A stretch of DNA of 36,548 nt from a virus: UHGV virus genome UHGV-0383210; one strand, 5' to 3'. The notes beneath the pieces were generated by a model that worked only from the letters and a program-made list of their open reading frames with translations, was not told the DNA's origin and made no database searches. A program made the translations under genes and the position numbers. This document shows positions 4,062-35,520 of this stretch, one piece after another; position 1 is the stretch's first letter; each line of letters begins with the position of its first letter.

Positions 4062-4843
4062 GCTGCCACCTTCTGCTCAGTGGCTTTCTGTTTCAGGAAT
4101 CCAAGAGCTTTCACTGCTTCGGCTTGTGTCAGTTCTGACGATGCGCGAATGTCGCGGCGAAATATCTGGGAACAGAGCGGCAATAAGTCGTCATCCCATG
4201 TTTTATCCAGGGCGATCAGCAGAGTGTTAATCTCCTGCATGGTTTCATCGTTAACCGGAGTGATGTCGCGTTCCGGCTGACGTTCCGCAGTGTATGCAGT
4301 ATTTTCGACAATGCGCTCGGCTTCATCCTTGTCATAGATACCAGCAAATCCGAAGGCCAGACGGGCACACTGAATCATGGCTTTATGCCGTAACATCCGT
4401 TTGGGATGCGACTGCCACGGCCCCGTGATTTCTCTGCCTTCGCGAGTTTTGAATGGTTCGCGGCGGCATTCATCCATCCATTCGGTAACGCAGATCGGAT
4501 GATTGCGGTCTTTGCGGTAAATCCGGCATGTACAGGATTCATTGTCCTGCTCAAAGTCCATGCCATCAAACTGCTGGTTTTCATTGATGATGCGGGACCA
4601 GCCATCAACGCCCACCACCGGAACGATGCCGTTCTGCTTATCAGGGAAGGCGTAAATTTCTTTCGTCCACGGATTAAGGCCGTACTGGTTGGCGACGATC
4701 AACAATGCGATGAACTGCGCATCGCTGGCATCACCTTTAAATGCCGTCTGGCGAAGAGTGGTGATCAGTTCCTGTGGGTCGACAGAATCCATGCCGACAC
4801 GTTCAGCCAGCTTCCCTGCCAGCGTTGCGAGTGCTGTACTCAT
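4058..4843 (-). CDS. bet: Lambda-type single-strand annealing protein Red-beta (261 aa)
   Basis: [66 protein letters not shown] matches recalled lambda Bet; 4-nt overlap with exo. Confidence 0.95.
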
Positions 4844-4848
4844 CCGTT

Positions 4849-5265
4849 TTATACCTCTGAATCAATATCAACCTGGTGGCGGGCAATAGTTTCAACCATG
4901 TACCGGATGTGTTCTGCCATGCGCTCCTGAAACTCAACATCGTCATCAAACGCACGGGTAATGGCTTTTTTGCTGGCCCCGTGGCGTTGCAAATGATCGA
5001 TGCATAGCGATTCAAACAGGTGCTGGGGCAGGCCTTTTTCCATGTCGTCTGCCAGTTCTGCCTCTTTCTCTTCACGGGCGATCTGCTGGTAGTGACGCGC
5101 CCAGCTCTGAGCCTCAATACGATCCTGAATGTAATAAGCGTTCATGGCTGAACTCCTGAAATAGCTGTGAAAATATCGCCCGCGAAATGCCGGGCTGATT
5201 AGGAAAACAGGAAAGGGGGTTAGTGAATGCTTTTGCTTGATCTCAGTTTCAGTATTAATATCCAT
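4849..5265 (-). CDS. gam: Gam, RecBCD inhibitor (138 aa)
   Basis: [49 protein letters not shown] matches recalled lambda Gam. Confidence 0.95.
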
Positions 5266-5363
5266 TTTTTATAAGCGTCGACGGCCTCACGAAACATCTT
5301 TTCATCGCCAATAAAAGTGGCGATAGTGAATTTAGTCTGGATAGCCATAAGTGTTTGATCCAT
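5220..5363 (-). CDS. kil: Kil host-killing protein (47 aa; internal ATG of ORF 5220..5489)
   Basis: [47 protein letters not shown] matches recalled lambda Kil; overlaps cIII 3' end out of frame as in lambda. Confidence 0.85.
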
Positions 5364-5496
5364 TTTTTGGGACTCCTGGCTGATTAAGTATGTCGATAAG
5401 GCGTTTCCATCCGTCACGTAATTTACGGGTGATTCGTTCAAGTAAAGATTCGGAAGGGCAGCCAGCAACAGGCCACCCTGCAATGGCATATTGCAT
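5332..5496 (-). CDS. cIII: cIII, FtsH inhibitor (54 aa; below ORF-track size cutoff)
   Basis: Hand translation of reverse strand gives MQYAIAGWPVAG...[23 protein letters not shown], matching recalled lambda cIII. Confidence 0.85.
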   Translation of the reverse strand: MQYAIAGWPVAGCPSESLLERITRKLRDGWKRLIDILNQPGVPKNGSNTYGYPD

Positions 5497-5551
5497 GGTG
5501 TGCTCCTTATTTATACATAACGAAAAACGCCTCGAGTGAAGCGTTATTGGT

Positions 5552-5583
5552 ATGCATATAAAAAGGCCCTCACATTAGAGGGC
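5552..5583 (-). terminator. Putative rho-independent terminator in leftward operon between ral and cIII
   Basis: Minus-strand hairpin GCCCTC-taatgt-GAGGGC followed by CTTTTTATAT. Confidence 0.4.
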
Positions 5584-5740
5584 AAAGAAGATTTCCAATA
5601 ATCAGAACAAGTCGGCTCCTGTTTAGTTACGAGCGACATTGCTCCGTGTATTCACTCGTTGGAATGAATACACAGTGCAGTGTTTATTCTGTTATTTATG
5701 CCAAAAATAAAGGCCACTATCAGGCAGCTTTGTTGTTCTG

Positions 5741-5920
5741 TTAACCAAGTTCTCTGGCAATCATTGCCGTCGTTCGTATTGCCCATTTATCGACATATTT
5801 CCCATCTTCCATTACAGGAAACATTTCTTCAGGCTTAACCATGCATTCCGATTGCAGCTTGCATCCATTGCATCGCTTGAATTGTCCACACCATTGATTT
5901 TTATCAATAGTCGTAGTCAT
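5741..5920 (-). CDS. ral: Ral restriction-alleviation protein, 59 codons as encoded (canonical lambda Ral recalled as 66 aa)
   Basis: Hand translation MTTTIDKNQWCGQFKRCNGCKLQSECMVKPEEMFPVMEDGKYVDKWAIRTTAMIARELG then TAA where lambda has AAA (Lys). Confidence 0.8.
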   Translation of the reverse strand: MTTTIDKNQWCGQFKRCNGCKLQSECMVKPEEMFPVMEDGKYVDKWAIRTTAMIARELG

Positions 5921-6044
5921 ACGGATAGTCCTGGTATTGTTCCATCACATCCTGAGGATGCTCTTCGAACTCTTCAAATTCTTCTTCCATATATCACCTC
6001 AAATAAGTTGTTTGCTGCGAAAGTAAATACGCTTAAGTTACCTG

Positions 6045-6182
6045 TTATTTATCCCACCAAGTTCCGTATCTATCTATCCAGTCACACCAATCATCGACAC
6101 TCCATTTTGTTGTGTCGCATTTTGGCAACTGGCATGAATATCTACCTTCTTTGTAAAGTCGGCGTTTGACTTTCTTGAGCAT
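6045..6182 (-). CDS. Hypothetical Cys/Trp-rich small protein (45 aa)
   Basis: Hand-translated MLKKVKRRLYKEGRYSCQLPKCDTTKWSVDDWCDWIDRYGTWWDK; SD GAGGT 5 nt upstream; 9 nt downstream of N stop. Confidence 0.4.
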   Translation of the reverse strand: MLKKVKRRLYKEGRYSCQLPKCDTTKWSVDDWCDWIDRYGTWWDK

Positions 6183-6190
6183 GGCTTACC

Positions 6191-6523
6191 TCAATCGTAA
6201 TAAGCTGGAATTGATTTTCCGCGTTGCTTCTGGCGGCCTGAGCAAGTCACACCCATTTCACAGCGTGGCTTGCTGTACCATGTGCGCTGATTCTTGCGCT
6301 CAATACGTTGCAGGTTGCTTTCAATCTGTTCGTGGTATTCAGCCAGCACCGTAAGGTCTATCGGATTCAGTGCGCTTTCTACTCGTGATTTCGGTTTGCG
6401 ATTCAGCGAGAGAATAGGGCGGTTAACTGGTTTTGCGCTTACCCCAACCAACAGGGGATTTGCTGCTTTCCATTGAGCCTGTTTCTCTGCGCGACGTTCG
6501 CGGCGGCGTGCTTGCGCATCCAT
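6191..6523 (-). CDS. N: N transcription antiterminator (110 aa from ATG at 6523; ORF-track start 6613 is upstream)
   Basis: MDAQARRRERRAEKQAQWKAANPLLVGVSAKPVNRPILSLNRKPKSRVESALNPIDLTVLAEYH matches recalled lambda N arginine-rich motif and body; C-terminus diverges; SD AGGAGAA. Confidence 0.9.
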   Translation of the reverse strand: MDAQARRRERRAEKQAQWKAANPLLVGVSAKPVNRPILSLNRKPKSRVESALNPIDLTVLAEYHEQIESNLQRIERKNQRTWYSKPRCEMGVTCSGRQKQRGKSIPAYYD

Positions 6524-6633
6524 CTGGATTCTCCTGTCAGTTAGCTTTGAGTAACGCGCCGTGATGCTTATCTCCACGGTTGCTGTCTTGCAGCTGCATT
6601 TCGCGCTACTCAAAGCCTTCTGCTTTGAATGCT

Positions 6634-6663
6634 GCCCTTCTTCAGGGCTAAATTTTTAAGAGC
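6634..6663 (-). promoter_or_regulatory. nutL (boxA plus boxB hairpin) upstream of N
   Basis: Reverse strand reads GCTCTTAAAAATTTA GCCCTGAAGAAGGGC, the lambda nutL boxA/boxB pattern. Confidence 0.8.
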
Positions 6664-6708
6664 CTCACCTTCATGGTGGTCAGTGCGTCCTGCTGATGGC
6701 TTAAAATT

Positions 6709-6777
6709 ACAAGAAAGATTGTATGTTGTAAACAAGAAATATTGTAAAAAAGGGGCGTGAAAAACAAACTCCATTGT
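6709..6777. promoter_or_regulatory. OL operator cluster of 434 type (three 14-bp ACAA-N6-TTGT sites) with pL
   Basis: ACAAGAAAGATTGT (6709-6722), ACAAGAAATATTGT (6732-6745), ACAAACTCCATTGT (6764-6777) read directly. Confidence 0.8.
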
Positions 6778-6826
6778 TTTTAAATGAAAAATAGTTTGTT
6801 TTTGGTTATCGAGATTGAGGTGGGGA

Positions 6827-8179
<1,353 letters not shown>

Positions 8180-12016: not shown

Positions 12017-12505
12017 ATGGGCATAAGAGAACTAAACCTCACCAAAGAACAGCACGAGTGGCTGAATGGCTGGCTTGAACTGTGGGGCGCATGGGTTTAT
12101 TCAGGTCGTCTGGAAAAGCGCATGAGCAGCGTAATAGCTAAGTTCATGGAGAGCGTAGAGCCGGGAAGAGTTATGACAAGGCCAATGTGTAATGATGATG
12201 ATGGAATGTTGATTTCTCAGGTCGTCGATTCCGTCATGTACATTGACAAGAAAGCCTTTGGCATCCTCCTCAGCTACTACGCCCACGGCTCTTCCAAGCA
12301 CGCCATTGCATCTTACTATCATCGCGTCGCAAGACCTCGCAAGATGTTATGCCGGGGCGGCGGGCGCATTCAAAAACCATCGCTCGCAACCTGTCGACGG
12401 GAAGTTGACGAAATCCTCAATGCCTCGTTGTTTATGATTTACCCGGTTCTGGATAGTGCGTTTAAAAACCGGAAACGTGTAGAGAAAATTAAACATGTAG
12501 CATAG
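12017..12505 (+). CDS. Q: Late-gene antiterminator Q, not lambda Q type; size fits a phage-21-like Q (162 aa from ATG 12017)
   Basis: Position after nin and before tR' and lysis genes; strong SD AAGGGAGAAGG; no similarity to recalled lambda Q. Confidence 0.6.
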   Translation: MGIRELNLTKEQHEWLNGWLELWGAWVYSGRLEKRMSSVIAKFMESVEPGRVMTRPMCNDDDGMLISQVVDSVMYIDKKAFGILLSYYAHGSSKHAIASYYHRVARPRKMLCRGGGRIQKPSLATCRREVDEILNASLFMIYPVLDSAFKNRKRVEKIKHVA

Positions 12506-12596: not shown

Positions 12597-12671
12597 GGGT
12601 CAGTCGTATAAAGGTCATTACGGAAGGCTGTTAACCTTCTTATCGTGGTTCGAGTCCACGCTGTCCCGCCA
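12597..12671 (+). tRNA. Phage-encoded tRNA, anticodon GUU (Asn) by hand fold
   Basis: Cloverleaf folded by hand: acceptor GGGTCAG/CTGTCCC (one T-T mismatch), anticodon stem GAAGG/CCTTC, loop CTGTTAA, T-loop TTCGAGT, discriminator G, CCA. Confidence 0.55.
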
Positions 12672-12676
12672 AATAT

Positions 12677-12752
12677 GCTGGTTTAGCTCCAATGGTAGAG
12701 CGGTCGCCTTGTAAGCGAATGGGTAGCGGTTCAAGTCCGTTAACCAGCACCA
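12677..12752 (+). tRNA. Phage-encoded tRNA, anticodon UGU (Thr) by hand fold
   Basis: Acceptor GCTGGTT/AACCAGC perfect, D-stem GCTC/GAGC, anticodon loop CTTGTAA, T-arm GGTTCAAGTCC, discriminator A, CCA. Confidence 0.65.
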
Positions 12753-13583: not shown

Positions 13584-14017
13584 GTAGAGTAACCGTGATT
13601 ATCTCCGCTCTGGTTATCTGCATCATCGTCTGCCTGTCATGGGCTGTTAATCATTACCGTGATAACGCCATGACCTACAAAGAACAGCGCGATAAAGCCA
13701 CATCCATCATCGCTGATATGCAGAAGCGTCAACGTGATGTAGCAGAACTCGACGCAAGATATACAAAGGAACTTGCTGATGCTAACGCGACTATCGAAAG
13801 TCTCCGTGCTGATGTTTCTGCTGGGCGTAAGCGCCTGCAAGTCGCCGCCACCTGTGCAAAGTCAACGACCGGAGCCAGCAGCATGGGCGATGGAGAAAGC
13901 CCAAGACTTACAGCAGATGCTGAACTCAATTATTACCGTCTCCGAAGTGGAATCGACAGGATAACCGCGCAGGTTAACTACTTGCAGGAATACATCAGGA
14001 CGCAATGCCTTCGATGA
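13580..14017 (+). CDS. Rz: Rz i-spanin (ATG 13580 overlapping R stop; ORF-track start 13568 is GTG)
   Basis: N-terminal TM segment [20 protein letters not shown], coiled-coil body, position after endolysin. Confidence 0.8.
13779..13964 (+). CDS. Rz1: Rz1 o-spanin lipoprotein embedded in +1 frame of Rz
   Basis: [20 protein letters not shown] lipobox then proline-rich [14 protein letters not shown]; fully nested in Rz as in lambda. Confidence 0.75.
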
Positions 14018-14317
14018 TAGCGATAATTTTACTCATCATCCTTCACATCTGGCTCTGTAGACAGGGTGGTGATCACTTCTGGAGTGAATCCAGATTAAAC
14101 ATCTCATTGCTGATGCTTGAAGTTGAGCATCTGGCGCGCGGTAAGGGGCTGCGTTGAGATAAGAGCCAGTTCATTACAAAGCCTATCTACGGGTGGGCTT
14201 GATAATGAAACCGGAATTTATTCTGGGCAACCAGTTACGGCAGTACAGCGAAACAACCCAAGCCAGTAAGTGGGGAAATAACACTGGCAGCCACTGAAAG
14301 ATGAACCTCCAGCCTTA

Positions 14318-14756
<439 letters not shown>

Positions 14757-14792
14757 TACGGACTAATTGATGTATTGAATATTTCGAGCATA

Positions 14793-14813
14793 AATTGATG
14801 TGACACATCAATT
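14793..14813. promoter_or_regulatory. Perfect 10-1-10 palindrome AATTGATGTG-A-CACATCAATT, with an extra AATTGATGT half-site at 14765-14773; operator-like
   Basis: Read directly; lies 57 bp upstream of protease start codon. Confidence 0.6.
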
Positions 14814-14869
14814 ATTCTGGTGGATGAATTCATTATGATTTTTTCACACACCGGTATAGGAGCAAATCG

Positions 14870-15616
14870 ATGCATCAAACTCTAGCCAACGCAACTTTTC
14901 AGGTCATTGCAGGGGATTCTCGTGGTAGTGGGTTCAGCTTTATGCGAGAAGATCTGGTCGTAACCAATTTTCATGTTGTCGCCGCCTGCTGTAACTTGCA
15001 GAATCAGAATCTGCGTCAAATTAATCATGTAATCCTTCAGACTGAATCTAATGAGCATATAGAAGCTCAAATATTGTACATTGATGGTGACAACGACTTT
15101 GCGATTATGCGGTTGCAATCACCGCTTCCTGCCGGGAGAACAGTACTTCAACCATCCGTAGGATTTACTCCAACTCGAGGCAAAAAGTTAATCTTTGCCG
15201 GGTATCCGCATGGGCTGCCTCAATTGCTTACGAATGAAGGGATTATTTCCGCCCCTCTGGAAAGTGGGCGTTTTGCTCTTGATGGAATGGTTAATGGTGG
15301 AAATTCAGGCGGTCCAATTATTGACCGGGAAACGGGAGAAGCTGTAGGCATTGTTACTCAACGTCGATACATTCTGCCGCCTGATGCGCAGCAGCTCTCT
15401 AATGAAGTTGCTCAGCTTCGCGGCTATTTGGCGCAGGCAGCACAGCAAATGTCAGTGGAAGTCATGGGGGTTAACTTTGGACGAATGGCAGATATGTTCA
15501 GTCGCTCACTGCAAATGGTTAATGAAATGTTGAATCTTAATGCCAATCCTGGCATTGGGACTGGTTTCTCGTTAGAACCAATCGTAAATGCAGTTAATTC
15601 ACTTCCTCAACATTGA
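14870..15616 (+). CDS. Trypsin-like (S1/chymotrypsin-fold) serine protease, no signal peptide, about 85-aa C-terminal extension of unknown function
   Basis: Catalytic-triad motifs in order: TNFHVV (His), GDNDFAIM (Asp), GGNSGGPI (Ser); SD AGGAG 7 nt before ATG; N-terminus lacks a hydrophobic signal. Confidence 0.75.
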   Translation: MHQTLANATFQVIAGDSRGSGFSFMREDLVVTNFHVVAACCNLQNQNLRQINHVILQTESNEHIEAQILYIDGDNDFAIMRLQSPLPAGRTVLQPSVGFTPTRGKKLIFAGYPHGLPQLLTNEGIISAPLESGRFALDGMVNGGNSGGPIIDRETGEAVGIVTQRRYILPPDAQQLSNEVAQLRGYLAQAAQQMSVEVMGVNFGRMADMFSRSLQMVNEMLNLNANPGIGTGFSLEPIVNAVNSLPQH

Positions 15617-15645
15617 TCAAGCTGCGATTTAGTAAAAGACATAGG

Positions 15646-15673
15646 GCCACTGGCAAGTGCGAGTGGCTTTTCT
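15646..15673 (+). terminator. Putative terminator after protease gene
   Basis: GCCACT-10 nt loop-AGTGGC then TTTTCT. Confidence 0.4.
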
Positions 15674-15797
15674 ATTGCCGTCAAATGGGTAGCATCATTG
15701 TAATGGCTTTAACTTTAGGTGCAGAATTATGGTAAAACCGGACTTGGATTCCGTTGAATAAGAATGGTGACCATAACACAGAGTCACCACAGATTAT

Positions 15798-16163
15798 TTA
15801 TCCGCGCGCTTCGCGACCAGGCTCATCTTCATTAACGCGATAACGCCAATATCGCTCAGGCTTAACCCAAACCACTTTATCACCGCTTACTTTGCGGAAT
15901 TGGGTAATGACAGGTGTAGATAAAACAAGATTACCATCAGCATTTTCTTTCAGAAACTGCTCATTATCGAGTTTGACTAAATAATCAACTACGTCTTCCT
16001 GATACAGGCAACCGTCATATTCTAACTGAGCCATCATCCACTTCATCACGTCTGTAAGAGACAACTTGAGTGCGTTTGGGTTTACGGCTTTGGGTTGGTA
16101 GCAGTCAGTGATTCTTCTGGAAATCTGGCTCTTTCTTGCTTTCTTCCTGAAAACCACTGACAC
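15798..16163 (-). CDS. Hypothetical protein (121 aa as ORF; may start at internal Met 16046 giving 83 aa)
   Basis: ORF convergent with protease gene; N-terminal 82 nt overlap the upstream gene out of frame. Confidence 0.4.
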   Translation of the reverse strand: MSVVFRKKARKSQISRRITDCYQPKAVNPNALKLSLTDVMKWMMAQLEYDGCLYQEDVVDYLVKLDNEQFLKENADGNLVLSTPVITQFRKVSGDKVVWVKPERYWRYRVNEDEPGREARG

Positions 16164-16291
16164 CAGTAATCACCAACAAAAACATCAAAGCTGTTTATGA
16201 TTGGCTCCTGAATAGCCATCGCCGGGCCGCCTGAAACCAAATAAACAATGTCGCCGATTTTAAATTTAGGGGTACGTGGATTTTTTGACAT
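16082..16291 (-). CDS. Small protein of the YodC/DUF2158-like family (69 aa)
   Basis: KIGDIVYLVSGGPAMAI...YWCQWFSG fits the recalled GDxVxLxSGGPxM...CxWF pattern; SD AGGAAG 4 nt before ATG. Confidence 0.55.
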   Translation of the reverse strand: MSKNPRTPKFKIGDIVYLVSGGPAMAIQEPIINSFDVFVGDYWCQWFSGRKQERARFPEESLTATNPKP

Positions 16292-16318
16292 AAAGCTTCC
16301 TTTTTAAGAGAGAGATAC

Positions 16319-16870
16319 ATGGCACTCACCGACAAACAAGAAATGTTCTGTCGCGAGTACCTCATCGATTTAAACGCCACGCAAGCGGCTATTCGGGCGG
16401 GGTACAGCGCTAAGACAGCTAACCGTACCGCATCCGAAAACCTGTCAAAACCTGACATCAAGTTAAGAATCGCCGAACTGAAAGCGCAACGCAATGATCT
16501 TGTTGGTATTAATGCAGAATATGTGCTTAATCGCCTTATTGAAATCGACCAGATGGATGTGCTTGACATTCTCCTGCAAAACGGTGAGCTAAAACCCATT
16601 AAAGACTGGCCTAAGGTATGGCGCACAACGCTATCAGGAATGGATGTCATGGAGATGGTATCCGCAGATAGCGCCGCACTTCTGAAGAAAATCAAATGGC
16701 CTGATAAGGTTAAAAACCTTGAGTTGCTTGGGCGTCATGTTTCTGTTCAGGCGTTTAAAGACAACGTCAAAAATGAAGTGACTGGCGCTGATGGAGGACC
16801 AGTCAGAACAGAAATTACCAACTTAACGCCGGAGCAGGCTGCAGAGGCGTATAGAAAAATGATGGGCTAA
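16319..16870 (+). CDS. Terminase small subunit (183 aa)
   Basis: Immediately precedes large terminase; [30 protein letters not shown] resembles phage small terminase HTH N-termini. Confidence 0.7.
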
Positions 16871-30498: not shown

Positions 30499-31560
30499 AT
30501 GTCACAGAACTGGATGAGACATTTCGAGCTGCAGCTTGTGGACGGGAACGGTCAGGGAATTGAGCTAAGTGATTTCAAAGTCACCTTTACGATCGACTGG
30601 TTCAACATCAGCAGCGCGTCCCGGGTAGGGACTATCAAAATTTATAACCTCTCGGCAGATACTGTGAACCGAATCACCGGGAAGGAATTTTCGAAAGTGC
30701 GGCTGATTGCCGGTTACGACGGTATCGCGCCGGAGGTGGCGGCAAGCGACGTCGGGACCGTGCGCGAAGTCGACGCGGCAGATGTGGGCCAGAGTGATGG
30801 CCGCAACTACGGGCTGATTTTCAGCGGAGAAATTCGCTACTCGGTCACAGGAAAAGACAGCCCTATTGATTCCTATGTCCTGATTCAGGCAGCAGATACG
30901 GATCTGGCATTTGCCACCAGTATAACCTCACAGACGCTGGCTGCCGGTTACACGGTCGCTGATGTGAACCGTGCGCTGATGAAAGACTTCGAAGCCAAAG
31001 GCGCGACCGAAGGCCTGACGCCTGAAATGCCTGCTACTGTATTCCCCCGGGGGCGGGTGCTCTTTGGCATGACGCGGCATCTTATGGATAACGTAGCCGG
31101 GCAATGTGGCGCAACATGGCAATTCGTGGACGGTCAACGCCAGATGGTGGCGAATAACGAATATGTTCATGAAGCGATTGTGCTCAACAGCGCCACCGGG
31201 CTTATCGGCATGCCGCAGCAGACTATCGGCAACGGCGTAAACGTCCGCGCGCTTATTAATCCGAACATCCGGGTTAACGGACTTATTCAGCTGGATCAGG
31301 CTTCCGTGTATCGTACCGCCTTGTCGAACAACGATATTGCGATGGCTGGTGGTCAGATCACCGACCAGAACACGGATGGAAATATCACGCTAAGCGGCAC
31401 CACATCGCAGCCTGCCAGCATCGCAACGGATGGCGTTTATATTGTGCGCGGGATTATGTACACTGGCGACACAAGGGGCCAGGCGTGGTACATGGATATG
31501 ATGTGCGAAGCGCGTGGCGCGGCGGATCTGTATACGCGATCGGCTTTGCAAAGGGGATGA
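30499..31560 (+). CDS. Baseplate hub protein (P2 gpD / Mu gp44-like, 353 aa)
   Basis: Size and position after tape measure in a myovirus tail cluster. Confidence 0.5.
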   Translation: MSQNWMRHFELQLVDGNGQGIELSDFKVTFTIDWFNISSASRVGTIKIYNLSADTVNRITGKEFSKVRLIAGYDGIAPEVAASDVGTVREVDAADVGQSDGRNYGLIFSGEIRYSVTGKDSPIDSYVLIQAADTDLAFATSITSQTLAAGYTVADVNRALMKDFEAKGATEGLTPEMPATVFPRGRVLFGMTRHLMDNVAGQCGATWQFVDGQRQMVANNEYVHEAIVLNSATGLIGMPQQTIGNGVNVRALINPNIRVNGLIQLDQASVYRTALSNNDIAMAGGQITDQNTDGNITLSGTTSQPASIATDGVYIVRGIMYTGDTRGQAWYMDMMCEARGAADLYTRSALQRG

Positions 31561-31563
31561 GCA

Positions 31564-31905
31564 ATGAGGGGTATTATTTTTCTGTTAGCTGTTTTTTCTG
31601 CGTGCAGCGCGTGGGCGGATGGCTTCACGGTTAAATGCGGTGGCTACACTATGGTTGCAAACCAGGGCGAGTTATCGACTATCAACGGTGAAAGAGTTAC
31701 CTCTCAAAAAATCACCGAACTGGGTACCAATGGTTTGAAAGTAGACATGGGGCTTATGCCTGCCAAAGACGGTAACAACTACGGCTTTGAATACATTCGT
31801 CGCCCTGGCACCGAAACGCGTTTCCTGAACGTCCAGCTTCTGCAGAACAGCATGGATGCGCCTAAAATCATCGGATCATTCCCTTGTAAAAAGGCGTTAC
31901 GCTAA
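31564..31905 (+). CDS. Small secreted protein (113 aa) with N-terminal signal peptide; not an expected virion gene
   Basis: MRGIIFLLAVFSACSAWA signal-like N-terminus with AWA-DG cleavage context; SD AGGGGA; sits between hub and spike genes. Confidence 0.6.
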   Translation: MRGIIFLLAVFSACSAWADGFTVKCGGYTMVANQGELSTINGERVTSQKITELGTNGLKVDMGLMPAKDGNNYGFEYIRRPGTETRFLNVQLLQNSMDAPKIIGSFPCKKALR

Positions 31906-32000
31906 AGTTTGATGTCAATCTTCCGAGATGAGCGCTTTAAGGTTGACGAGATATTGTTCAAAGTTCACAATCACAATCCCTTTAGTAAGAGAAATAATCC

Positions 32001-32774
32001 ATGGCGGCAGGCATCCCATTAGAAAAAGCGCAAAAATATATTGAACAATTCAATGCGCTTCTATTGGATAGGGAAAGTTTAGATCCCTTCACTGAAAAGA
32101 AAATTCGAGAGGAACTTTCTGTCTCTCCAACGCCTGCTACCAACATTGCACTATCTTATCTGGATGCAATAACCGGAAAGATTGAAAGCGCGTTACGTTA
32201 TCTCAGGATAAGCCTAGAAGTAAACGATGTAACGTTGGCAATGCACTATCATCACATTTTAATTAATACATTTAGCTATAATGAACTCAAGGATGTCTAT
32301 GTCCCGCTGGCAAAGAAGTATCGGACAAAACTCTTTAGTCACAACGCATACAGTTGGGCGTACCGTTGCGGCGAGCGTGAACAGTTAAAATTTTATATGG
32401 AAGAGCACATTAAGCTTCTTTCTGAATCAGAAGGCAGGAGTAATGCTATGAAGCACAAAGAAGAACTCCTTGCAGAAATGGATAATTTCTATAGCGCCAC
32501 ACAGTGCTCGAAGGAACAGTTCCAGACCTTAGCATCCATAATCTGGGGCTTGCTAAGTGAATACAAGGCTACGACAGGTTTCGTTCAGCTTAGTGGAAGC
32601 GGTTGCTATGTTGTTGATATTAAAAATCTTGAGCCTAAAACTATTGCCAAAATGAACTTCGACTTGGCTGATAGAGTCTGCGCTGAATCTAAACTGGATG
32701 ATTGTTCCCTGTTAGCTAGATTTACCTCTCCGCGTCAGTTGCATACGGGGGTGAGCTACCATGTCGGTAACTAG
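32001..32774 (+). CDS. Hypothetical protein (257 aa), first gene of AT-rich two-gene insert
   Basis: ATG ORF, predicted soluble and helical by eye, no recognised motif; low GC relative to flanks. Confidence 0.6.
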   Translation: MAAGIPLEKAQKYIEQFNALLLDRESLDPFTEKKIREELSVSPTPATNIALSYLDAITGKIESALRYLRISLEVNDVTLAMHYHHILINTFSYNELKDVYVPLAKKYRTKLFSHNAYSWAYRCGEREQLKFYMEEHIKLLSESEGRSNAMKHKEELLAEMDNFYSATQCSKEQFQTLASIIWGLLSEYKATTGFVQLSGSGCYVVDIKNLEPKTIAKMNFDLADRVCAESKLDDCSLLARFTSPRQLHTGVSYHVGN

Positions 32775-33156
32775 CAATCAGATTCTCGATACCGCTCGAT
32801 TATGTCTGTCTGAAAATATTGAGAGTGGATTTCGAAGCGCTATCTCAAGGGCGTATTACAGTATGTTACATGAGTCTATTAGCTCACTTACTGCCATACC
32901 GCATTTTACCCATGAGCATCACAAAAATACTGTGGGTTATATGTCAACGCCCTCAGAGTGCAAATCAGAGCCATACCCGACAAATACACTGAAATCCCTA
33001 GCTTTCGTACTTCGCCAGTGGCGGGATGCTAGAAATGAAGCTGACTATGATCTGACGAATGTGACTGTTTCGAAAGAGATGGGACAGGATGCAATCGAGG
33101 CTGCTGAACTCTATTTTGAGCGCTGGGAACAGCTAAAGTCTGCTAGAGTTTCATGA
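32761..33156 (+). CDS. Hypothetical protein (131 aa), second gene of insert; tentative HEPN-like helical features
   Basis: ATG overlaps upstream gene by 14 nt with strong SD GGGGGTGAG; contains RAYYSMLH (R-x6-H) and RDARNEADY motifs. Confidence 0.6.
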   Translation: MSVTSNQILDTARLCLSENIESGFRSAISRAYYSMLHESISSLTAIPHFTHEHHKNTVGYMSTPSECKSEPYPTNTLKSLAFVLRQWRDARNEADYDLTNVTVSKEMGQDAIEAAELYFERWEQLKSARVS

Positions 33157-33173
33157 ATAAAATTAACGTTATC

Positions 33174-33196
33174 AAACCCGCTTCGGCGGGTTTTTT
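33174..33196 (+). terminator. Rho-independent terminator ending the two-gene insert
   Basis: AAACCCGC-ttcg-GCGGGTTT perfect 8-bp stem followed by TTTTTT. Confidence 0.8.
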
Positions 33197-33215
33197 GCTT
33201 TCTGGAGCCTACTAA

Positions 33216-33968
33216 ATGGCAGTATCTGACCAGACCCGCAGCGGCGACCTTGCCGAAACATTCAAATCTGAACGGGAAACAACAAAGAACCAGATCCGTG
33301 TCGCCTTGCCTGGCATTATTCAGTCATTCGATCCTGATGCGGTGACGGCAGTTGTGCAGCCTGCTATCCGTTCGGTTGAAAAGGATAATGACGGCAACCG
33401 CATTACCAAAAATTACCCATTGCTGGTGGATGTGCCAGTGGTATTCCCGCGCGGCGGAGGATGTACGCTAACGTTCCCAGTTAAAGCCGGTGATGAATGT
33501 TTGGTGATTTTTGCCGATCGTTGTATTGATTTCTGGTGGCAGAGTGGCGGGATACAGGAGTCGGTCGATGACAGAATGCATGATTTATCGGATGCGTTTT
33601 GTATTGTCGGTCCCCAGTCGCAGGCAAGGAAGATTAGCGGTATTAATACCAGTGCCACACAGTTGCGTAGTGATGACGGCAGCACCTATTTTGAGCTTAA
33701 TCCTGATACCAGGAAAATTAAAATTGTCGCTCCAGGTGGTCTTGATGTGGTTGCCCCTCTGGCTGATTTTTCTGAGAAAGTAACCATTCATGGCCTGTTA
33801 ACCTGGATGGGGGGCATGGTGGGGTCTGTGGTTTCTGGTGTGGCTTCAAAAATCACTGGTGCTGTTGAGTTTTTGGGGAGCGTGAAGGCTAATGGCAAGC
33901 CAATCGATGATACACACACTCATGGTGGTGTTCAGCGTGGTGGAAGCAGTACCGACGGGGTAAACTGA
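33216..33968 (+). CDS. Baseplate central spike / assembly protein V-like (250 aa)
   Basis: Gene order hub-spike-W-J-I typical of P2/Mu-like baseplates; SD GGAG. Confidence 0.5.
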   Translation: MAVSDQTRSGDLAETFKSERETTKNQIRVALPGIIQSFDPDAVTAVVQPAIRSVEKDNDGNRITKNYPLLVDVPVVFPRGGGCTLTFPVKAGDECLVIFADRCIDFWWQSGGIQESVDDRMHDLSDAFCIVGPQSQARKISGINTSATQLRSDDGSTYFELNPDTRKIKIVAPGGLDVVAPLADFSEKVTIHGLLTWMGGMVGSVVSGVASKITGAVEFLGSVKANGKPIDDTHTHGGVQRGGSSTDGVN

Positions 33969-34321
33969 TGCGATACAGACGTGAAGACGCCGATGGCGAT
34001 TACACCTTTGGCAGCGGTGATGACACCTGGCTGATTAACTCGCCTGAGGCCGTAGCGCAGGCTGTGAAAACGCGATTCGAATTGTGGTATGGGCAATGGT
34101 TTCTTGATACCACAGAGGGAACACCGTGGATCCAGTCCGTGCTGGGCAGGCAAAAACCAGAAACTTACAACCTGGCGATCCGTAAGCGCATCCTCGAAAC
34201 GCAGGGCGTTAAATCAATCCTCTCTTTCAATACGACGGTGGATACCACGACCCGACGTGTCATGTTTTCCGCTGAAATCGACACTCTCTATGGAATAACG
34301 ACTGTTACATCGGAGGCGTAA
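33968..34321 (+). CDS. Baseplate wedge protein, gpW/gp25-like (117 aa)
   Basis: Size and position immediately before J-like gene. Confidence 0.5.
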   Translation: MRYRREDADGDYTFGSGDDTWLINSPEAVAQAVKTRFELWYGQWFLDTTEGTPWIQSVLGRQKPETYNLAIRKRILETQGVKSILSFNTTVDTTTRRVMFSAEIDTLYGITTVTSEA

Positions 34322-35520
34322 TGGCTCTGAACCTTGATTCTCTCGGTTTATCTGCAAAGGTAACCGCGGAGGGGATCAGTGCGCCTGATTATCAGACGAT
34401 ACTCAGCACCCTGATTAGCTATTTTCAGCAGATTTATGGCAGTGATGCCTACCTCGAACCGGACAGCAAAGACGGCCAGATGGTGGCTCTGATGGCGCTG
34501 GCGATTCATGATGCCAATAATATGGCGATAACTGTCTACAACTGTTTTTCACCGGCAACCGGCTATGGGGCTGCACTGACCAGTAACGTGAAAATAAATG
34601 GTATTTCACGTAAAGGCGCGACGAACTCTACGGTTGATTTGCTTCTTACAGGAACTGCCGGAACAACCATCATTAATGGCAGCGTGAAAGACAGTAATAA
34701 TGTGATATGGCGTTTGCCTGCTTCAGTGGTGGTCGGCGTGGATGGTACAGTGATGGCGACCGCAACATGTTCCGTCAGTGGTGCAGTGGCGGCGCTGGCT
34801 GGAACTATCACTGAAATTAATACGCCAACCCGTGGCTGGGTTTCGGTAACTAATCCTGCTGCGGCTACTGTTGGTTCTCCGGCAGAAACTGATGCTGAGT
34901 TACGTATCCGCCAGTCGCAAAGTGTTGCGTTGCCATCAATAACCCCATTTGAAGCACTGGATGGTGCTGTTTCTAATGTTACCGGTGTAACCCGCCACAA
35001 ACTCTATGAAAACGATACTGGTTCGGAGGACGGTAACGGGTTACCGCCACACTCTGTTGCTGTAATTGTGGATGGCGGTGATGTGACGGATATTGCTCAG
35101 GCTATCAGAGGGAATAAAGGCCAGGGGACAGCCACTCACGGTACAACATCCGTTACGGTTCCGGATAAATACGGCAATCCCCATGTAATCAAATTCTCGC
35201 GTTCCAGTGATGTGCCTGTTTATGCCCGGATTAAATTAAAAGTTTTTACGGGTTATACCTCACAGATAGGGCAGCAGATCCAGCAGGCTATTTCCGACTA
35301 TATCAATAGTTTGACGATTGGTGATTCGGTCCTTTTAAGTCGCATTTACTCACCGGCGAATCTTGGCGTGGTGAGTGGCGGGAATGCACGCTATTACGAT
35401 ATTCAGGAACTGACGATTGGGAAATCCCCGGGGGCTTTGTCGTCATCAAACATTGATATCAGATACAACGAATCTGCGTCCTGTACCCCGGAAAATATCG
35501 TTATAACGGTGGAGTCATGA
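34321..35520 (+). CDS. Baseplate J-like protein (399 aa)
   Basis: Size and order in baseplate module. Confidence 0.55.
   Translation: MALNLDSLGLSAKVTAEGISAPDYQTILSTLISYFQQIYGSDAYLEPDSKDGQMVALMALAIHDANNMAITVYNCFSPATGYGAALTSNVKINGISRKGATNSTVDLLLTGTAGTTIINGSVKDSNNVIWRLPASVVVGVDGTVMATATCSVSGAVAALAGTITEINTPTRGWVSVTNPAAATVGSPAETDAELRIRQSQSVALPSITPFEALDGAVSNVTGVTRHKLYENDTGSEDGNGLPPHSVAVIVDGGDVTDIAQAIRGNKGQGTATHGTTSVTVPDKYGNPHVIKFSRSSDVPVYARIKLKVFTGYTSQIGQQIQQAISDYINSLTIGDSVLLSRIYSPANLGVVSGGNARYYDIQELTIGKSPGALSSSNIDIRYNESASCTPENIVITVES

What the first reader, a model, noticed from the sequence alone, without database searches (positions are those of the whole stretch)
32001..33196. AT-rich, self-terminated two-gene operon inserted between baseplate hub and spike genes
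Two overlapping ORFs (257 aa and 131 aa, 14-nt overlap, strong SD on the second) sit inside an otherwise contiguous Mu/P2-like baseplate block and end in a strong terminator (33174-33196). Sampled 60-nt lines give roughly 28-40% GC here against about 60% in a flanking tail-gene line, consistent with horizontal acquisition. Neither protein resembles a virion component I recognise. The second protein is helical with R-x6-H (RAYYSMLH) and RDARNEADY motifs that loosely recall HEPN-type RNase toxins, a tentative reading. A compact foreign cassette in a tail module is a typical layout for prophage-borne defence or toxin-immunity systems, and this one appears unannotated in function.
Basis: partly seen in the sequence, partly recalled or inferred. 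Interest (0 to 1): 0.78.

Follow-up and report, generated by a model that had tools for sequence, protein, structure and literature searches.

The report
Prophage cargo slot holding a HEPN gene pair
Two AT-rich genes wedged between the baseplate hub and spike genes of an E. coli prophage are a swappable cargo cassette: a small HEPN-type (probable RNase) protein with a previously unnamed repeat-protein partner, most likely an untested anti-phage or toxin-antitoxin module.

Summary
Two overlapping genes, 257 aa at 32001-32774 and 131 aa at 32761-33156, are followed by a good intrinsic terminator at 33174-33193.

They are cargo, not tail parts. Of 336 E. coli genomes with this hub/spike junction, only 27 carry them. 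At least seven other AT-rich cargos fill the same slot, and all end in the same terminator hairpin.

Gene 2 is a HEPN domain of the AF0298/UPF0332 type. Family profiles hit PDB 9xbd at E=1.8e-10 and 2hsb at 1.1e-6. The canonical His of Rx4-6H is missing (R91-x3-D95-Y96), with a near-invariant His54 in the helix 2-3 insert.

Gene 1 has no family. Its model shows a variable TPR-like N-terminal half and a conserved C-terminal alpha/beta domain.

The pair stays together down to about 20-30% identity. It turns up in three kinds of phage tail module and in the known P2 gpA-gpQ defence hotspot of a Vibrio phage.

Most likely it is a lysogen-expressed abortive-infection or toxin-antitoxin-like system. 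No known defence model matches it, and its function is inferred, not shown.

The parts
31943..31971 (+). Putative sigma-70 promoter of the cassette (TTGACG-17 nt-CACAAT), about 30 nt upstream of gene 1
   Evidence: Consensus scan, 9/12 matches. On its own this is not above chance: 4 sites found against 4.8 expected. However, a gaTTGnn-17-nAnAnT element sits at the same position upstream of gene 1 in eight otherwise diverged cassettes, including those in siphovirus tail modules. Function is inferred.
32001..32774 (+). Gene 1: 257-aa partner protein with a TPR-like helical solenoid (about residues 7-139) and a C-terminal alpha/beta domain (146-245)
32747..32755 (+). Shine-Dalgarno-like GGGGGTGAG for gene 2, inside the end of gene 1
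   Evidence: Read from the sequence. The 14-nt overlap suggests translational coupling (inference).
32761..33156 (+). Gene 2: 131-aa HEPN-domain protein of the AF0298/UPF0332-like type
   Evidence: Family profiles hit PDB 9xbd at E=1.8e-10 and 2hsb (AF0298) at E=1.1e-6. 7 of 21 relatives hit Pfam HEPN PF05168. AF2 pLDDT 90.7, four long helices plus a helix 2-3 insert. E21, R30, Y32, Y33, R91, D95 and Y96 are invariant and H37 and H54 near-invariant across 22 distant relatives. dN/dS is 0.03-0.06.
33174..33203 (+). Intrinsic terminator (8-bp GC-rich stem, TTCG loop, T-run): the constant right border of the cargo slot, followed directly by the spike gene's ribosome-binding site
   Evidence: The same hairpin, with varying loops, ends all eight cargo types in E. 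coli. A hairpin with compensatory stem changes follows the pair in siphovirus contexts.
31564..31905 (+). Left neighbour: 113-aa ORF with a signal-peptide-like N-terminus, present in all relatives but itself variable
   Evidence: phrog_3443, function unknown. 55-100% identity between prophages whose hub is at least 96% identical.
30499..31560 (+). Flank: baseplate hub gene (context)
   Evidence: phrog_196 baseplate hub, E=4e-88; weak Pfam E217_GP41 match.
33216..33968 (+). Flank: membrane-puncturing spike gene (context)
   Evidence: Pfam spike N-terminal domain E=4e-44 plus the Apex motif. RefSeq names it a membrane-puncturing spike protein.
12017..12502 (+). Q-family antiterminator gene (context: would let late transcription read through the internal terminator)
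   Evidence: 100% tblastn match to the annotated Q-family antiterminator of locus L001. Read-through is inferred from lambda biology.

Best explanation
The region is a mobile two-gene cargo cassette, a 'moron', sitting in a variable slot of a lambdoid/SEN34-like myovirus prophage. The slot lies between the baseplate hub (plus a small secreted-protein ORF) and the spike gene.

Shown:
- The slot holds at least eight unrelated AT-rich cargos between nearly identical flanks, each closed by the same terminator.
- This cargo is a conserved, co-diverging gene pair.
- Gene 2 is a HEPN domain of the AF0298-like subfamily.
- Gene 1 is a new protein with a variable TPR-like half and a conserved C-terminal domain.

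Inferred mechanism:
- In the lysogen the pair is transcribed from its own promoter and stopped by the terminator, so the downstream tail genes stay silent. During lytic growth, Q-antiterminated late transcription reads through.
- The HEPN protein is a latent RNase effector. It would use the alternative site R91/H54, with E21, D95 and Y96.
- Gene 1 binds it through its conserved C-terminal part and holds it inactive. The fast-evolving TPR surface recognises a protein of an infecting phage.
- Recognition frees or activates the RNase, which stops translation and aborts the infection.

The system therefore behaves as a toxin-antitoxin-like abortive-infection module that benefits prophage and host.
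For: Slot and cargo:
- 336 E. coli genomes share the junction and 27 carry this cassette.
- Hub and spike are 96-100% identical around eight different cargos. These include a YafO-toxin pair, DUF4282, DUF2335 and a PycTM-like membrane protein.
- All cargos are 35-44.5% GC and all end in the same terminator.

The pair as a unit:
- Gene 1 and gene 2 homologues are always adjacent. Their identities fall together: 55/69, 42/53, 40/47, 35/42, 23/41 and about 17/30%.
- L011 carries a distant pair in the same slot (hhalign 73.5% and 97%).

Mobility:
- Homologous pairs sit between tape measure and gpM of lambda-like siphoviruses, and between tail chaperone and tape measure in Klebsiella.
- One sits next to a Fic gene.
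- In a P2-like Vibrio phage the pair lies between the portal gene and replication gene A. That is the experimentally validated P2 defence hotspot (PMC9122126).

HEPN assignment:
-.
- The motif pattern matches what Anantharaman et al. 2013 describe for AF0298-like HEPN-T and AbiV: R kept, H lost, alternative His in the helix 2-3 insert (PMC3710099).

Gene 1: a TPR-like fold with a variable N-terminal half.

Gene 2 is under purifying selection.

Precedent: prophage HEPN abortive-infection proteins are known, such as HepS (PMC13043305).
Against: - No experiment bears on it, and no match exists in PADLOC 2.0.
- The canonical catalytic His is absent, so RNase activity rests on a predicted, unverified alternative site.
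- Gene 1 has no recognisable antitoxin, DNA-binding or enzymatic domain, and its binding to gene 2 was not modelled.
- The promoter is only a consensus match, though its position is conserved.
- Foldseek against PDB gave only weak HEPN matches for gene 2 (E>0.3).
- The pair lies in the late-operon orientation, so late rather than lysogenic expression cannot be excluded.
Confidence: 0.6

Rival explanations
1. It is a plain addiction or stabilisation toxin-antitoxin pair with no role against other phages. The HEPN toxin and its labile gene-1 antidote would simply make loss of the prophage, or of this DNA segment, costly.
For: Overlapping two-gene layout with the presumed antidote first. Another cargo in the same slot is a YafO-family toxin pair. 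HEPN proteins are toxins of the HEPN-MNT systems (PMC7641770, listed).
Against: At 257 aa with a TPR-like sensor-type domain, gene 1 is unlike small labile antitoxins and has no DNA-binding domain. The most variable part is the TPR half, as expected for target recognition. A homologous pair sits in a validated defence hotspot. Many toxin-antitoxin pairs also defend, so the two readings overlap.
Confidence: 0.15
2. It is a phage-benefit gene pair acting in the lytic cycle, for example cutting host RNAs or countering a host defence. It would be expressed with the late or tail genes by read-through rather than in the lysogen.
For: Same strand as the late operon, downstream of a Q antiterminator. 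The pair is nearly always found inside tail modules. The promoter evidence is weak.
Against: Late structural operons are an unusual place for takeover or counter-defence genes, which usually act early. The optional, swappable nature and the positionally conserved promoter-like element fit lysogenic cargo better. The slot also holds toxin and membrane-protein cargos typical of lysogenic conversion or exclusion.
Confidence: 0.1
3. The HEPN domain is catalytically dead and serves as a binding module for a nucleotide, nucleic acid or protein. The pair would then be a regulator or adaptor, not a nuclease system.
For: The canonical His of Rx4-6H is missing. Anantharaman et al. note that some HEPN domains are non-catalytic binders (PMC3710099).
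Against: A set of polar residues is invariant or near-invariant across very distant relatives: E21, R30, R91, D95 and Y96, plus near-invariant H54. That paper takes such a pattern to indicate an alternative active site in exactly this subfamily.
Confidence: 0.12
4. The two proteins are baseplate or tail-assembly components specific to this phage lineage.
For: Their position inside the baseplate block and their co-orientation with it.
Against: They are absent from 309 of 336 E. coli prophages with the same junction. In prophages whose hub, spike and downstream baseplate proteins are 96-100% identical, unrelated genes take their place. The same pair occurs in siphovirus tails and in a non-tail P2 locus.
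Confidence: 0.02

Closest known systems
AF0298-like (UPF0332) HEPN-T family, Pfam PF05168; structures 2hsb and 9xbd/9xbc
   Same: Size of about 125-135 aa. Helix-2 signature S-R-A-Y-Y-x-M-x-H. A His in the helix 2-3 insert. R-x3-D-Y at the end of helix 3 (AF0298: R-E-E-S-D-Y; 9xbd: R-N-R-S-D-Y). Profile E-values are 1e-6 and 2e-10.
   Different: Classical members stand alone or pair with a minimal nucleotidyltransferase. Here the partner is a 257-aa TPR-like protein and the carrier is a phage tail module. The window protein itself scores below Pfam's reporting level.
HEPN-MNT (HepT/MntA) type VII toxin-antitoxin systems
   Same: Two overlapping genes with the HEPN protein second, and an invariant Tyr next to the HEPN motif.
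AbiV (Lactococcus abortive-infection protein)
   Same: According to Anantharaman et al. 2013, AbiV shares the loss of the motif His and the alternative His at the same position as AF0298-like proteins. It is a proven abortive-infection protein (my own knowledge).
   Different: AbiV acts as a single gene and is triggered by the phage protein SaV (my own knowledge).
HepS (Gifsy-1) and Tha (S. aureus prophages): prophage-encoded HEPN abortive-infection proteins
   Same: Prophage-borne HEPN effectors kept inactive until a phage structural (tail) protein appears. The carrier phage must avoid self-triggering (PMC13043305; PMC11087260 abstract).
   Different: [quoted passage not shown] This system is a two-gene unit with a non-canonical motif inside tail modules. 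No PDB hit to HepS-like chains appeared with the family profiles.
Morons of lambdoid phages and the P2/P4 defence hotspots (Rousset et al. 2022)
   Same: A promoter-gene-terminator unit of deviant composition, inserted between conserved phage genes and swapped among relatives. One homologous pair lies in the P2 gpA-gpQ hotspot itself.
   Different: The slot here (hub/small ORF to spike of a SEN34/E217-like baseplate module) did not turn up as a described hotspot in the literature I could search. Its right border is a conserved terminator shared by all cargos.

Membership tests
HEPN superfamily, AF0298-like HEPN-T subfamily (PF05168 / UPF0332) | Significant sequence similarity to established members | tested here: met
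   The profile of 22 relatives hits 9xbd at E=1.8e-10, 9xbc at 1.2e-9 and 2hsb (AF0298) at 1.1e-6. 7 of 21 close relatives hit PF05168, best E=3.8e-5. IMG labels the exact protein 'UPF0332 family'.
HEPN superfamily, AF0298-like HEPN-T subfamily (PF05168 / UPF0332) | Pfam PF05168 match above the curated cut-off for the window protein itself | tested here: not met
   No Pfam family was reported for the 131-aa protein even at E<=1. More distant relatives score 18.8-19.6 bits against a 22-bit cut-off.
HEPN superfamily, AF0298-like HEPN-T subfamily (PF05168 / UPF0332) | [quoted passage not shown] | tested here: met
   The AF2 model (pLDDT 90.7) has helices 5-17, 21-42, 74-95 and 105-130, with an insert at 43-73 containing a short helix 53-62. 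The top Foldseek PDB hits are HEPN domains, but weak (E>0.3).
HEPN superfamily, AF0298-like HEPN-T subfamily (PF05168 / UPF0332) | Canonical Rx4-6H motif at the end of helix 3 | tested here: not met
   R91 is invariant, but position +4 is D95 and +5 is Y96, with no His. This is the stated hallmark of the AF0298-like subfamily rather than an exclusion (PMC3710099).
HEPN superfamily, AF0298-like HEPN-T subfamily (PF05168 / UPF0332) | Alternative conserved His N-terminal to the motif, in the helix 2-3 insert | tested here: met
   H54 is conserved in at least 90% of 22 relatives and aligns with the His of 9xbd and AF0298.
HEPN superfamily, AF0298-like HEPN-T subfamily (PF05168 / UPF0332) | RNase activity and dimeric active site | not testable with these tools
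   Needs biochemistry. No multimer prediction was available.
HEPN-MNT type VII toxin-antitoxin | Adjacent minimal nucleotidyltransferase (MNT) antitoxin | tested here: not met
   Gene 1 has no Pfam, NCBIfam or PADLOC family. Its fold is TPR-like plus a small alpha/beta domain. No conserved G-S...D-x-D pattern appears in alignment A2.
HEPN-MNT type VII toxin-antitoxin | R-x4-H-x-Y motif whose Tyr is AMPylated | tested here: not met
   The motif here is R-x3-D-Y. Whether Y96 is modified cannot be tested.
Moron (autonomous cargo unit in a phage late operon) | Present in some and absent from other closely related phages at the same position | tested here: met
   27 of 336 E. coli junctions carry it, and eight cargo types lie between 96-100% identical flanks.
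Moron (autonomous cargo unit in a phage late operon) | Base composition different from the flanks | tested here: met
   42.2% GC against 49.8%, the lowest segment of the window. Homologous cassettes are 39-44% GC against 47-59% flanks.
Moron (autonomous cargo unit in a phage late operon) | Own terminator | tested here: met
   Hairpin plus T-run at 33174-33193, although it is shared by all cargos of the slot.
Moron (autonomous cargo unit in a phage late operon) | Own promoter active in the lysogen | tested here: inconclusive
   A 9/12 consensus match at 31943-31971 is not above the shuffled expectation, but its position is conserved across diverged cassettes. Needs transcript mapping.
Known anti-phage defence systems (PADLOC-DB 2.0.0) | Match to any model of a known or candidate defence protein | tested here: not met
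   No hit for either protein at E<=1. The distant paralogue in L011 hits HEPN_IX only at E=0.009.
TPR proteins (gene 1) | Repeated helix-turn-helix hairpins forming a solenoid | tested here: met

The most novel reading that the evidence does not exclude
The TPR-like partner plus AF0298-type HEPN pair is an undescribed family of prophage-borne abortive-infection systems. Its variable TPR surface would sense a structural (tail or baseplate) protein of competing phages.

The hub-to-spike slot of SEN34/E217-like myovirus prophages would be an unrecognised defence hotspot. A conserved terminator would both insulate the tail genes and serve as the recombination anchor for cargo exchange.

If so, it would also give the first functional handle on the non-canonical active site of AF0298-like HEPN domains.
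Probability: 0.3. Interest if true: 0.72.

Novelty: new variant of a known kind. Interest (0 to 1): 0.58.

Why it matters
If it works as proposed, three things follow.

- It adds a compact two-gene HEPN system with a new kind of partner to the list of prophage defences.
- It points to a further cargo slot, inside the baseplate module of a common family of enterobacterial prophages, that could be mined for other systems. At least seven further cargos are there, most of them unnamed.
- It offers a tractable E. coli model for the AF0298/UPF0332 HEPN proteins. Their catalytic status has only been predicted since 2013.

It also flags an annotation gap. RefSeq leaves gene 2 uncalled in L001, and for the 100%-identical genomes the hit table lists only one annotated feature under the cassette.

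Tried and rejected
- Single-sequence scans found nothing for either protein in Pfam, NCBIfam or PADLOC. PHROGs gave only 'unknown function' families.
- Foldseek against PDB with the gene 2 model gave only weak matches (E>0.3). HEPN domains ranked first, but this is not convincing alone.
- The afdb50 library was not available. BFVD gave two full-length look-alikes in uncultured siphoviruses, with no functional information.
- I considered a nucleotidyltransferase (MNT) reading of the G-S-G...D stretch in gene 1. I rejected it because those residues are not conserved and the modelled topology is a beta-hairpin, not the NTase helix-strand pattern.
- I looked for papers on UPF0332 and on PDB 9xbd and found none.
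- I searched the DefensePredictor supplements for the RefSeq accessions of gene 1 and of the L011 pair and found none, but several files were truncated.
- The domain-centric discovery paper does not mention HEPN or TPR.
- Brenes & Laub 2025 is not held.
- Rfam found no RNA family in or near the cassette.
- Distant HEPN hits in a proteobacterial MAG and in Methanobrevibacter have no gene 1-like neighbour and no recognisable MNT.

Full report
**Observation**

A GGGGGTGAG stretch ends 5 nt before the second ATG. The only terminator-like site in 31000-34000 is AAACCCGC-TTCG-GCGGGTTT plus a T-run at 33174-33193.

The GC dip is real but milder than stated. The cassette is 42.2% GC against 49.8% for the rest of the window, and GC3 is 0.43/0.40 against 0.63 in the hub gene. 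It is the lowest-GC 1.3-kb stretch of the whole window, about 2 sd below the mean. A 113-aa ORF with a signal-peptide-like start (31564-31905) lies between the hub gene and the cassette.

**Setting**

The window is a lambdoid prophage. It has a cIII thermoregulator, two tRNAs and a Q antiterminator at 12017-12502. The late region encodes a myovirus tail of the SEN34/E217 kind, in this order:

- tape measure with a lytic transglycosylase domain
- Dit-like protein
- plug
- hub
- small ORF
- the cassette
- spike
- sheath initiator
- baseplate J
- wedge

All of these genes are on the + strand.

**The cassette is optional cargo in a variable slot**

A 2-kb query spanning the junction matches 336 of 5426 complete E. 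coli genomes. Only 27 of them contain the cassette.

Loci whose hub, spike and neighbouring baseplate proteins are 96-100% identical to the window carry other things in the same place:

- a 190-aa protein plus a YafO-family toxin
- a DUF4282 protein
- a DUF2335 protein
- a 170-aa protein
- a 184-aa protein weakly like PycTM/2TM effectors, plus a 56-aa protein
- 774 nt with no annotation
- a 243-aa plus 142-aa pair

All these cargos are AT-rich (35-44.5% GC). All end in the same hairpin, AACCCGCC-loop-GGCGGG-TTTTTTGCTTTCTGGAG, followed directly by the spike start codon. The terminator is therefore a fixed right border of the slot, not a private feature of this operon.

This refutes a structural role.

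**The pair is a unit**

Homologues of both proteins are few and confined to Enterobacterales, Aeromonas and a Vibrio phage. There are 28 and 40 clusters at 90% identity for the two proteins, and 67 for the widened gene 1 superfamily.

In every locus examined the gene 1 homologue is immediately followed by the gene 2 homologue. Their identities to the window fall together, gene 1 first: 55/69, 57/72, 42/53, 40/47, 35/42 and 23/41%.

The 243+142 pair in L011 is a remote relative of both proteins. hhalign gives 73.5% probability (E=3e-5) for the partner over its full length, and 97% (E=8e-11) for the HEPN protein. It occurs in 33 E. coli genomes and is common in Salmonella.

Enterobacter kobei prophages have a 96.6% identical hub, but their pair is only 42/53% identical. 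Between the window and L035 the reverse holds: the cassette differs at 19 codons and the spike at 42. Both patterns point to cassette exchange independent of the backbone.

**Other homes of the pair**

- In Enterobacter hormaechei, Leclercia and Yokenella it lies between the tape measure gene and gpM of lambda-like siphovirus tails.
- In Klebsiella variicola and Klebsiella phage ST405-OXA48phi1.3 it lies between the tail chaperone and the tape measure.
- In Yersinia pekkanenii one copy is beside prophage remnants and an ORF6N gene, and another is beside a Fic gene.
- In the P2-like Vibrio phage 10N.286.54.E4_PE001 it lies between the portal gene, together with an ogr-like gene, and replication gene A. 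That interval is the gpA-gpQ hotspot that Rousset et al. showed to hold old, tin and other working anti-phage systems (PMC9122126).

A hairpin terminator follows gene 2 in nearly all of these, with compensatory stem changes in the siphovirus copies. A TTGnnn-17-nAnAnT element sits at a fixed distance upstream of gene 1 in eight diverged cassettes. In the window alone it is only a 9/12 consensus match, no better than chance.

**Gene 2**

The single sequence matches no Pfam, NCBIfam or PADLOC model. Family profiles do better:

- 7 of 21 relatives hit Pfam HEPN.
- A profile of 22 relatives hits PDB 9xbd at E=1.8e-10.
- The same profile hits AF0298 (2hsb, UPF0332) at E=1.1e-6.

The AF2 model is confident (pLDDT 90.7). 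It shows four long helices with an insert between helices 2 and 3.

Across relatives reaching a Vibrio phage, a proteobacterial MAG and Methanobrevibacter, the invariant residues are A12, E21, S29, R30, Y32, Y33, R91, D95 and Y96. R25, H37, H54, L84 and A94 are near-invariant.

R91-x3-D95-Y96 lies at the end of helix 3, where the Rx4-6H motif belongs, but there is no His. Anantharaman et al. describe exactly this for the AF0298-like HEPN-T family and for AbiV: the Arg is kept, the His is lost (often to Asp), and a second conserved His in the helix 2-3 insert may form an alternative active site (PMC3710099). H54 aligns with that His in 9xbd and AF0298.

The R-x6-H in RAYYSMLH, however, is the subfamily's helix-2 signature, not the catalytic motif.

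dN/dS of 0.03-0.06 shows that gene 2 is a real coding gene. Even so, RefSeq leaves it uncalled in L001. For the 100%-identical genomes the hit table lists only one annotated feature under the cassette.

**Gene 1**

Residues 10-100 are the most variable part. Residues 121-160 and 201-245 are conserved, and the first nine residues, MAAGIPxEK, are almost invariant.

No polar residue set is conserved across the whole superfamily. I therefore read gene 1 as a binder or regulator rather than an enzyme. It is not a nucleotidyltransferase, so the pair is not a HEPN-MNT system.

**Mechanism**

Shown:

- The cassette is swappable cargo.
- The two genes form an obligate, co-diverging pair.
- Gene 2 is a HEPN domain of the AF0298 type.
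- The partner is TPR-like with a variable half.
- A terminator closes the unit.

Inferred:

- The pair is expressed in the lysogen from its own promoter.
- The terminator insulates the tail genes, and Q-modified polymerase reads through it during lytic growth.
- The HEPN protein is a latent RNase.
- Gene 1 restrains it through its conserved part and senses an incoming phage protein through the TPR half.
- Activation aborts the infection.

I put about 0.6 on this defence or toxin-antitoxin-like reading and about 0.9 on the cargo-cassette anatomy. The rivals are a pure addiction module, a late-acting phage-benefit function, a non-catalytic HEPN adaptor, and a structural role. The presence/absence data effectively exclude the last.

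**Comparison and novelty**

By sequence, gene 2 belongs to the AF0298/UPF0332 HEPN subfamily. By function, the nearest analogues are HepS, Tha, AbiV and RnlAB-type systems. It fails the membership tests for HEPN-MNT (no MNT partner, different motif) and for every PADLOC model.

The combination of a TPR-like partner with this HEPN type is new as far as the tools and the searchable literature show. The same holds for the hub-spike slot with its conserved terminator. The general logic is well known, though: a moron, a prophage hotspot and a HEPN effector. I rate it a new variant of a known kind, of moderate to good interest, and worth a simple cloning and phage-challenge test.

Noticed in passing
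window 31564-31905: The 113-aa ORF with a signal-peptide or lipoprotein-like start (MRGIIFLLAVFSAC...; phrog_3443, function unknown) lies between the hub and the cargo slot. It is itself variable, at 55-100% identity between prophages whose hub is at least 96% identical, and grows to 288-294 aa in some relatives (L009, L017). It could be a second cargo or an exclusion protein.
   Followed up: partly
L001 21362-21757; hits H45-H65: RefSeq/PGAP does not call gene 2 in L001, which is 100% identical to the window. For the other 99.9-100% identical genomes the hit table lists only one 'hypothetical protein' under the cassette. Both genes are called in the 98.4% variants (L035). Gene 2 is clearly real (dN/dS 0.03-0.06).
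   Followed up: partly
L033 5053-5396 (Klebsiella phage ST405-OXA48phi1.3): The HEPN gene is annotated as two short CDS, although tblastn aligns all 131 residues in one piece. This is probably an annotation error.
   Followed up: no
window 32001-32027 (gene 1 residues 1-9): The N-terminal nonapeptide MAAGIPxEK is almost invariant across the family, while the next 90 residues are the most variable part of the protein. No explanation yet.
   Followed up: no
PDB 9xbd / 9xbc: These two closest solved structures are undescribed 'HEPN domain-containing proteins'. Within the aligned regions the only difference is Tyr to Phe in the R-N-x-x-D-Y motif, so the depositors may have probed that Tyr. No paper was found.
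   Followed up: partly
L002 3175-4165; L015 1722-2450; L013 1721-2494: Other cargos of the same slot look like defence or toxin candidates. One is a 190-aa protein (weak EAD5 match) with a YafO-family toxin. Another is a 184-aa protein weakly like PycTM/2TM effectors, with a 56-aa partner. E. coli IAI1 has 774 nt here with no annotated gene.
   Followed up: partly
L034 4223-5417 (Vibrio phage 10N.286.54.E4_PE001): A remote homologue of the whole pair (hhalign 96% and 98.8%) sits in the P2-type gpA-gpQ defence hotspot of a marine Vibrio phage. This extends the family beyond Enterobacterales.
   Followed up: yes
window 5451-5509 (-), 12597-12749 (+), 12017-12502 (+): Lambda cIII thermoregulator element, two tRNA genes and a Q-family antiterminator. 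The prophage combines lambdoid early and lysis regions with a SEN34/E217-like myovirus tail.
   Followed up: partly
L001 23783-25011: In E. coli strain 2824 an IS3-family element interrupts the baseplate J gene of the otherwise identical prophage. The window's copy (34321-35520) is intact.
   Followed up: no
window about 4800-8000 and 13900-16800: These are further low-GC stretches (<44% in 1.3-kb windows) in the early and lysis/terminase-proximal regions. They may hold other accessory genes.
   Followed up: no
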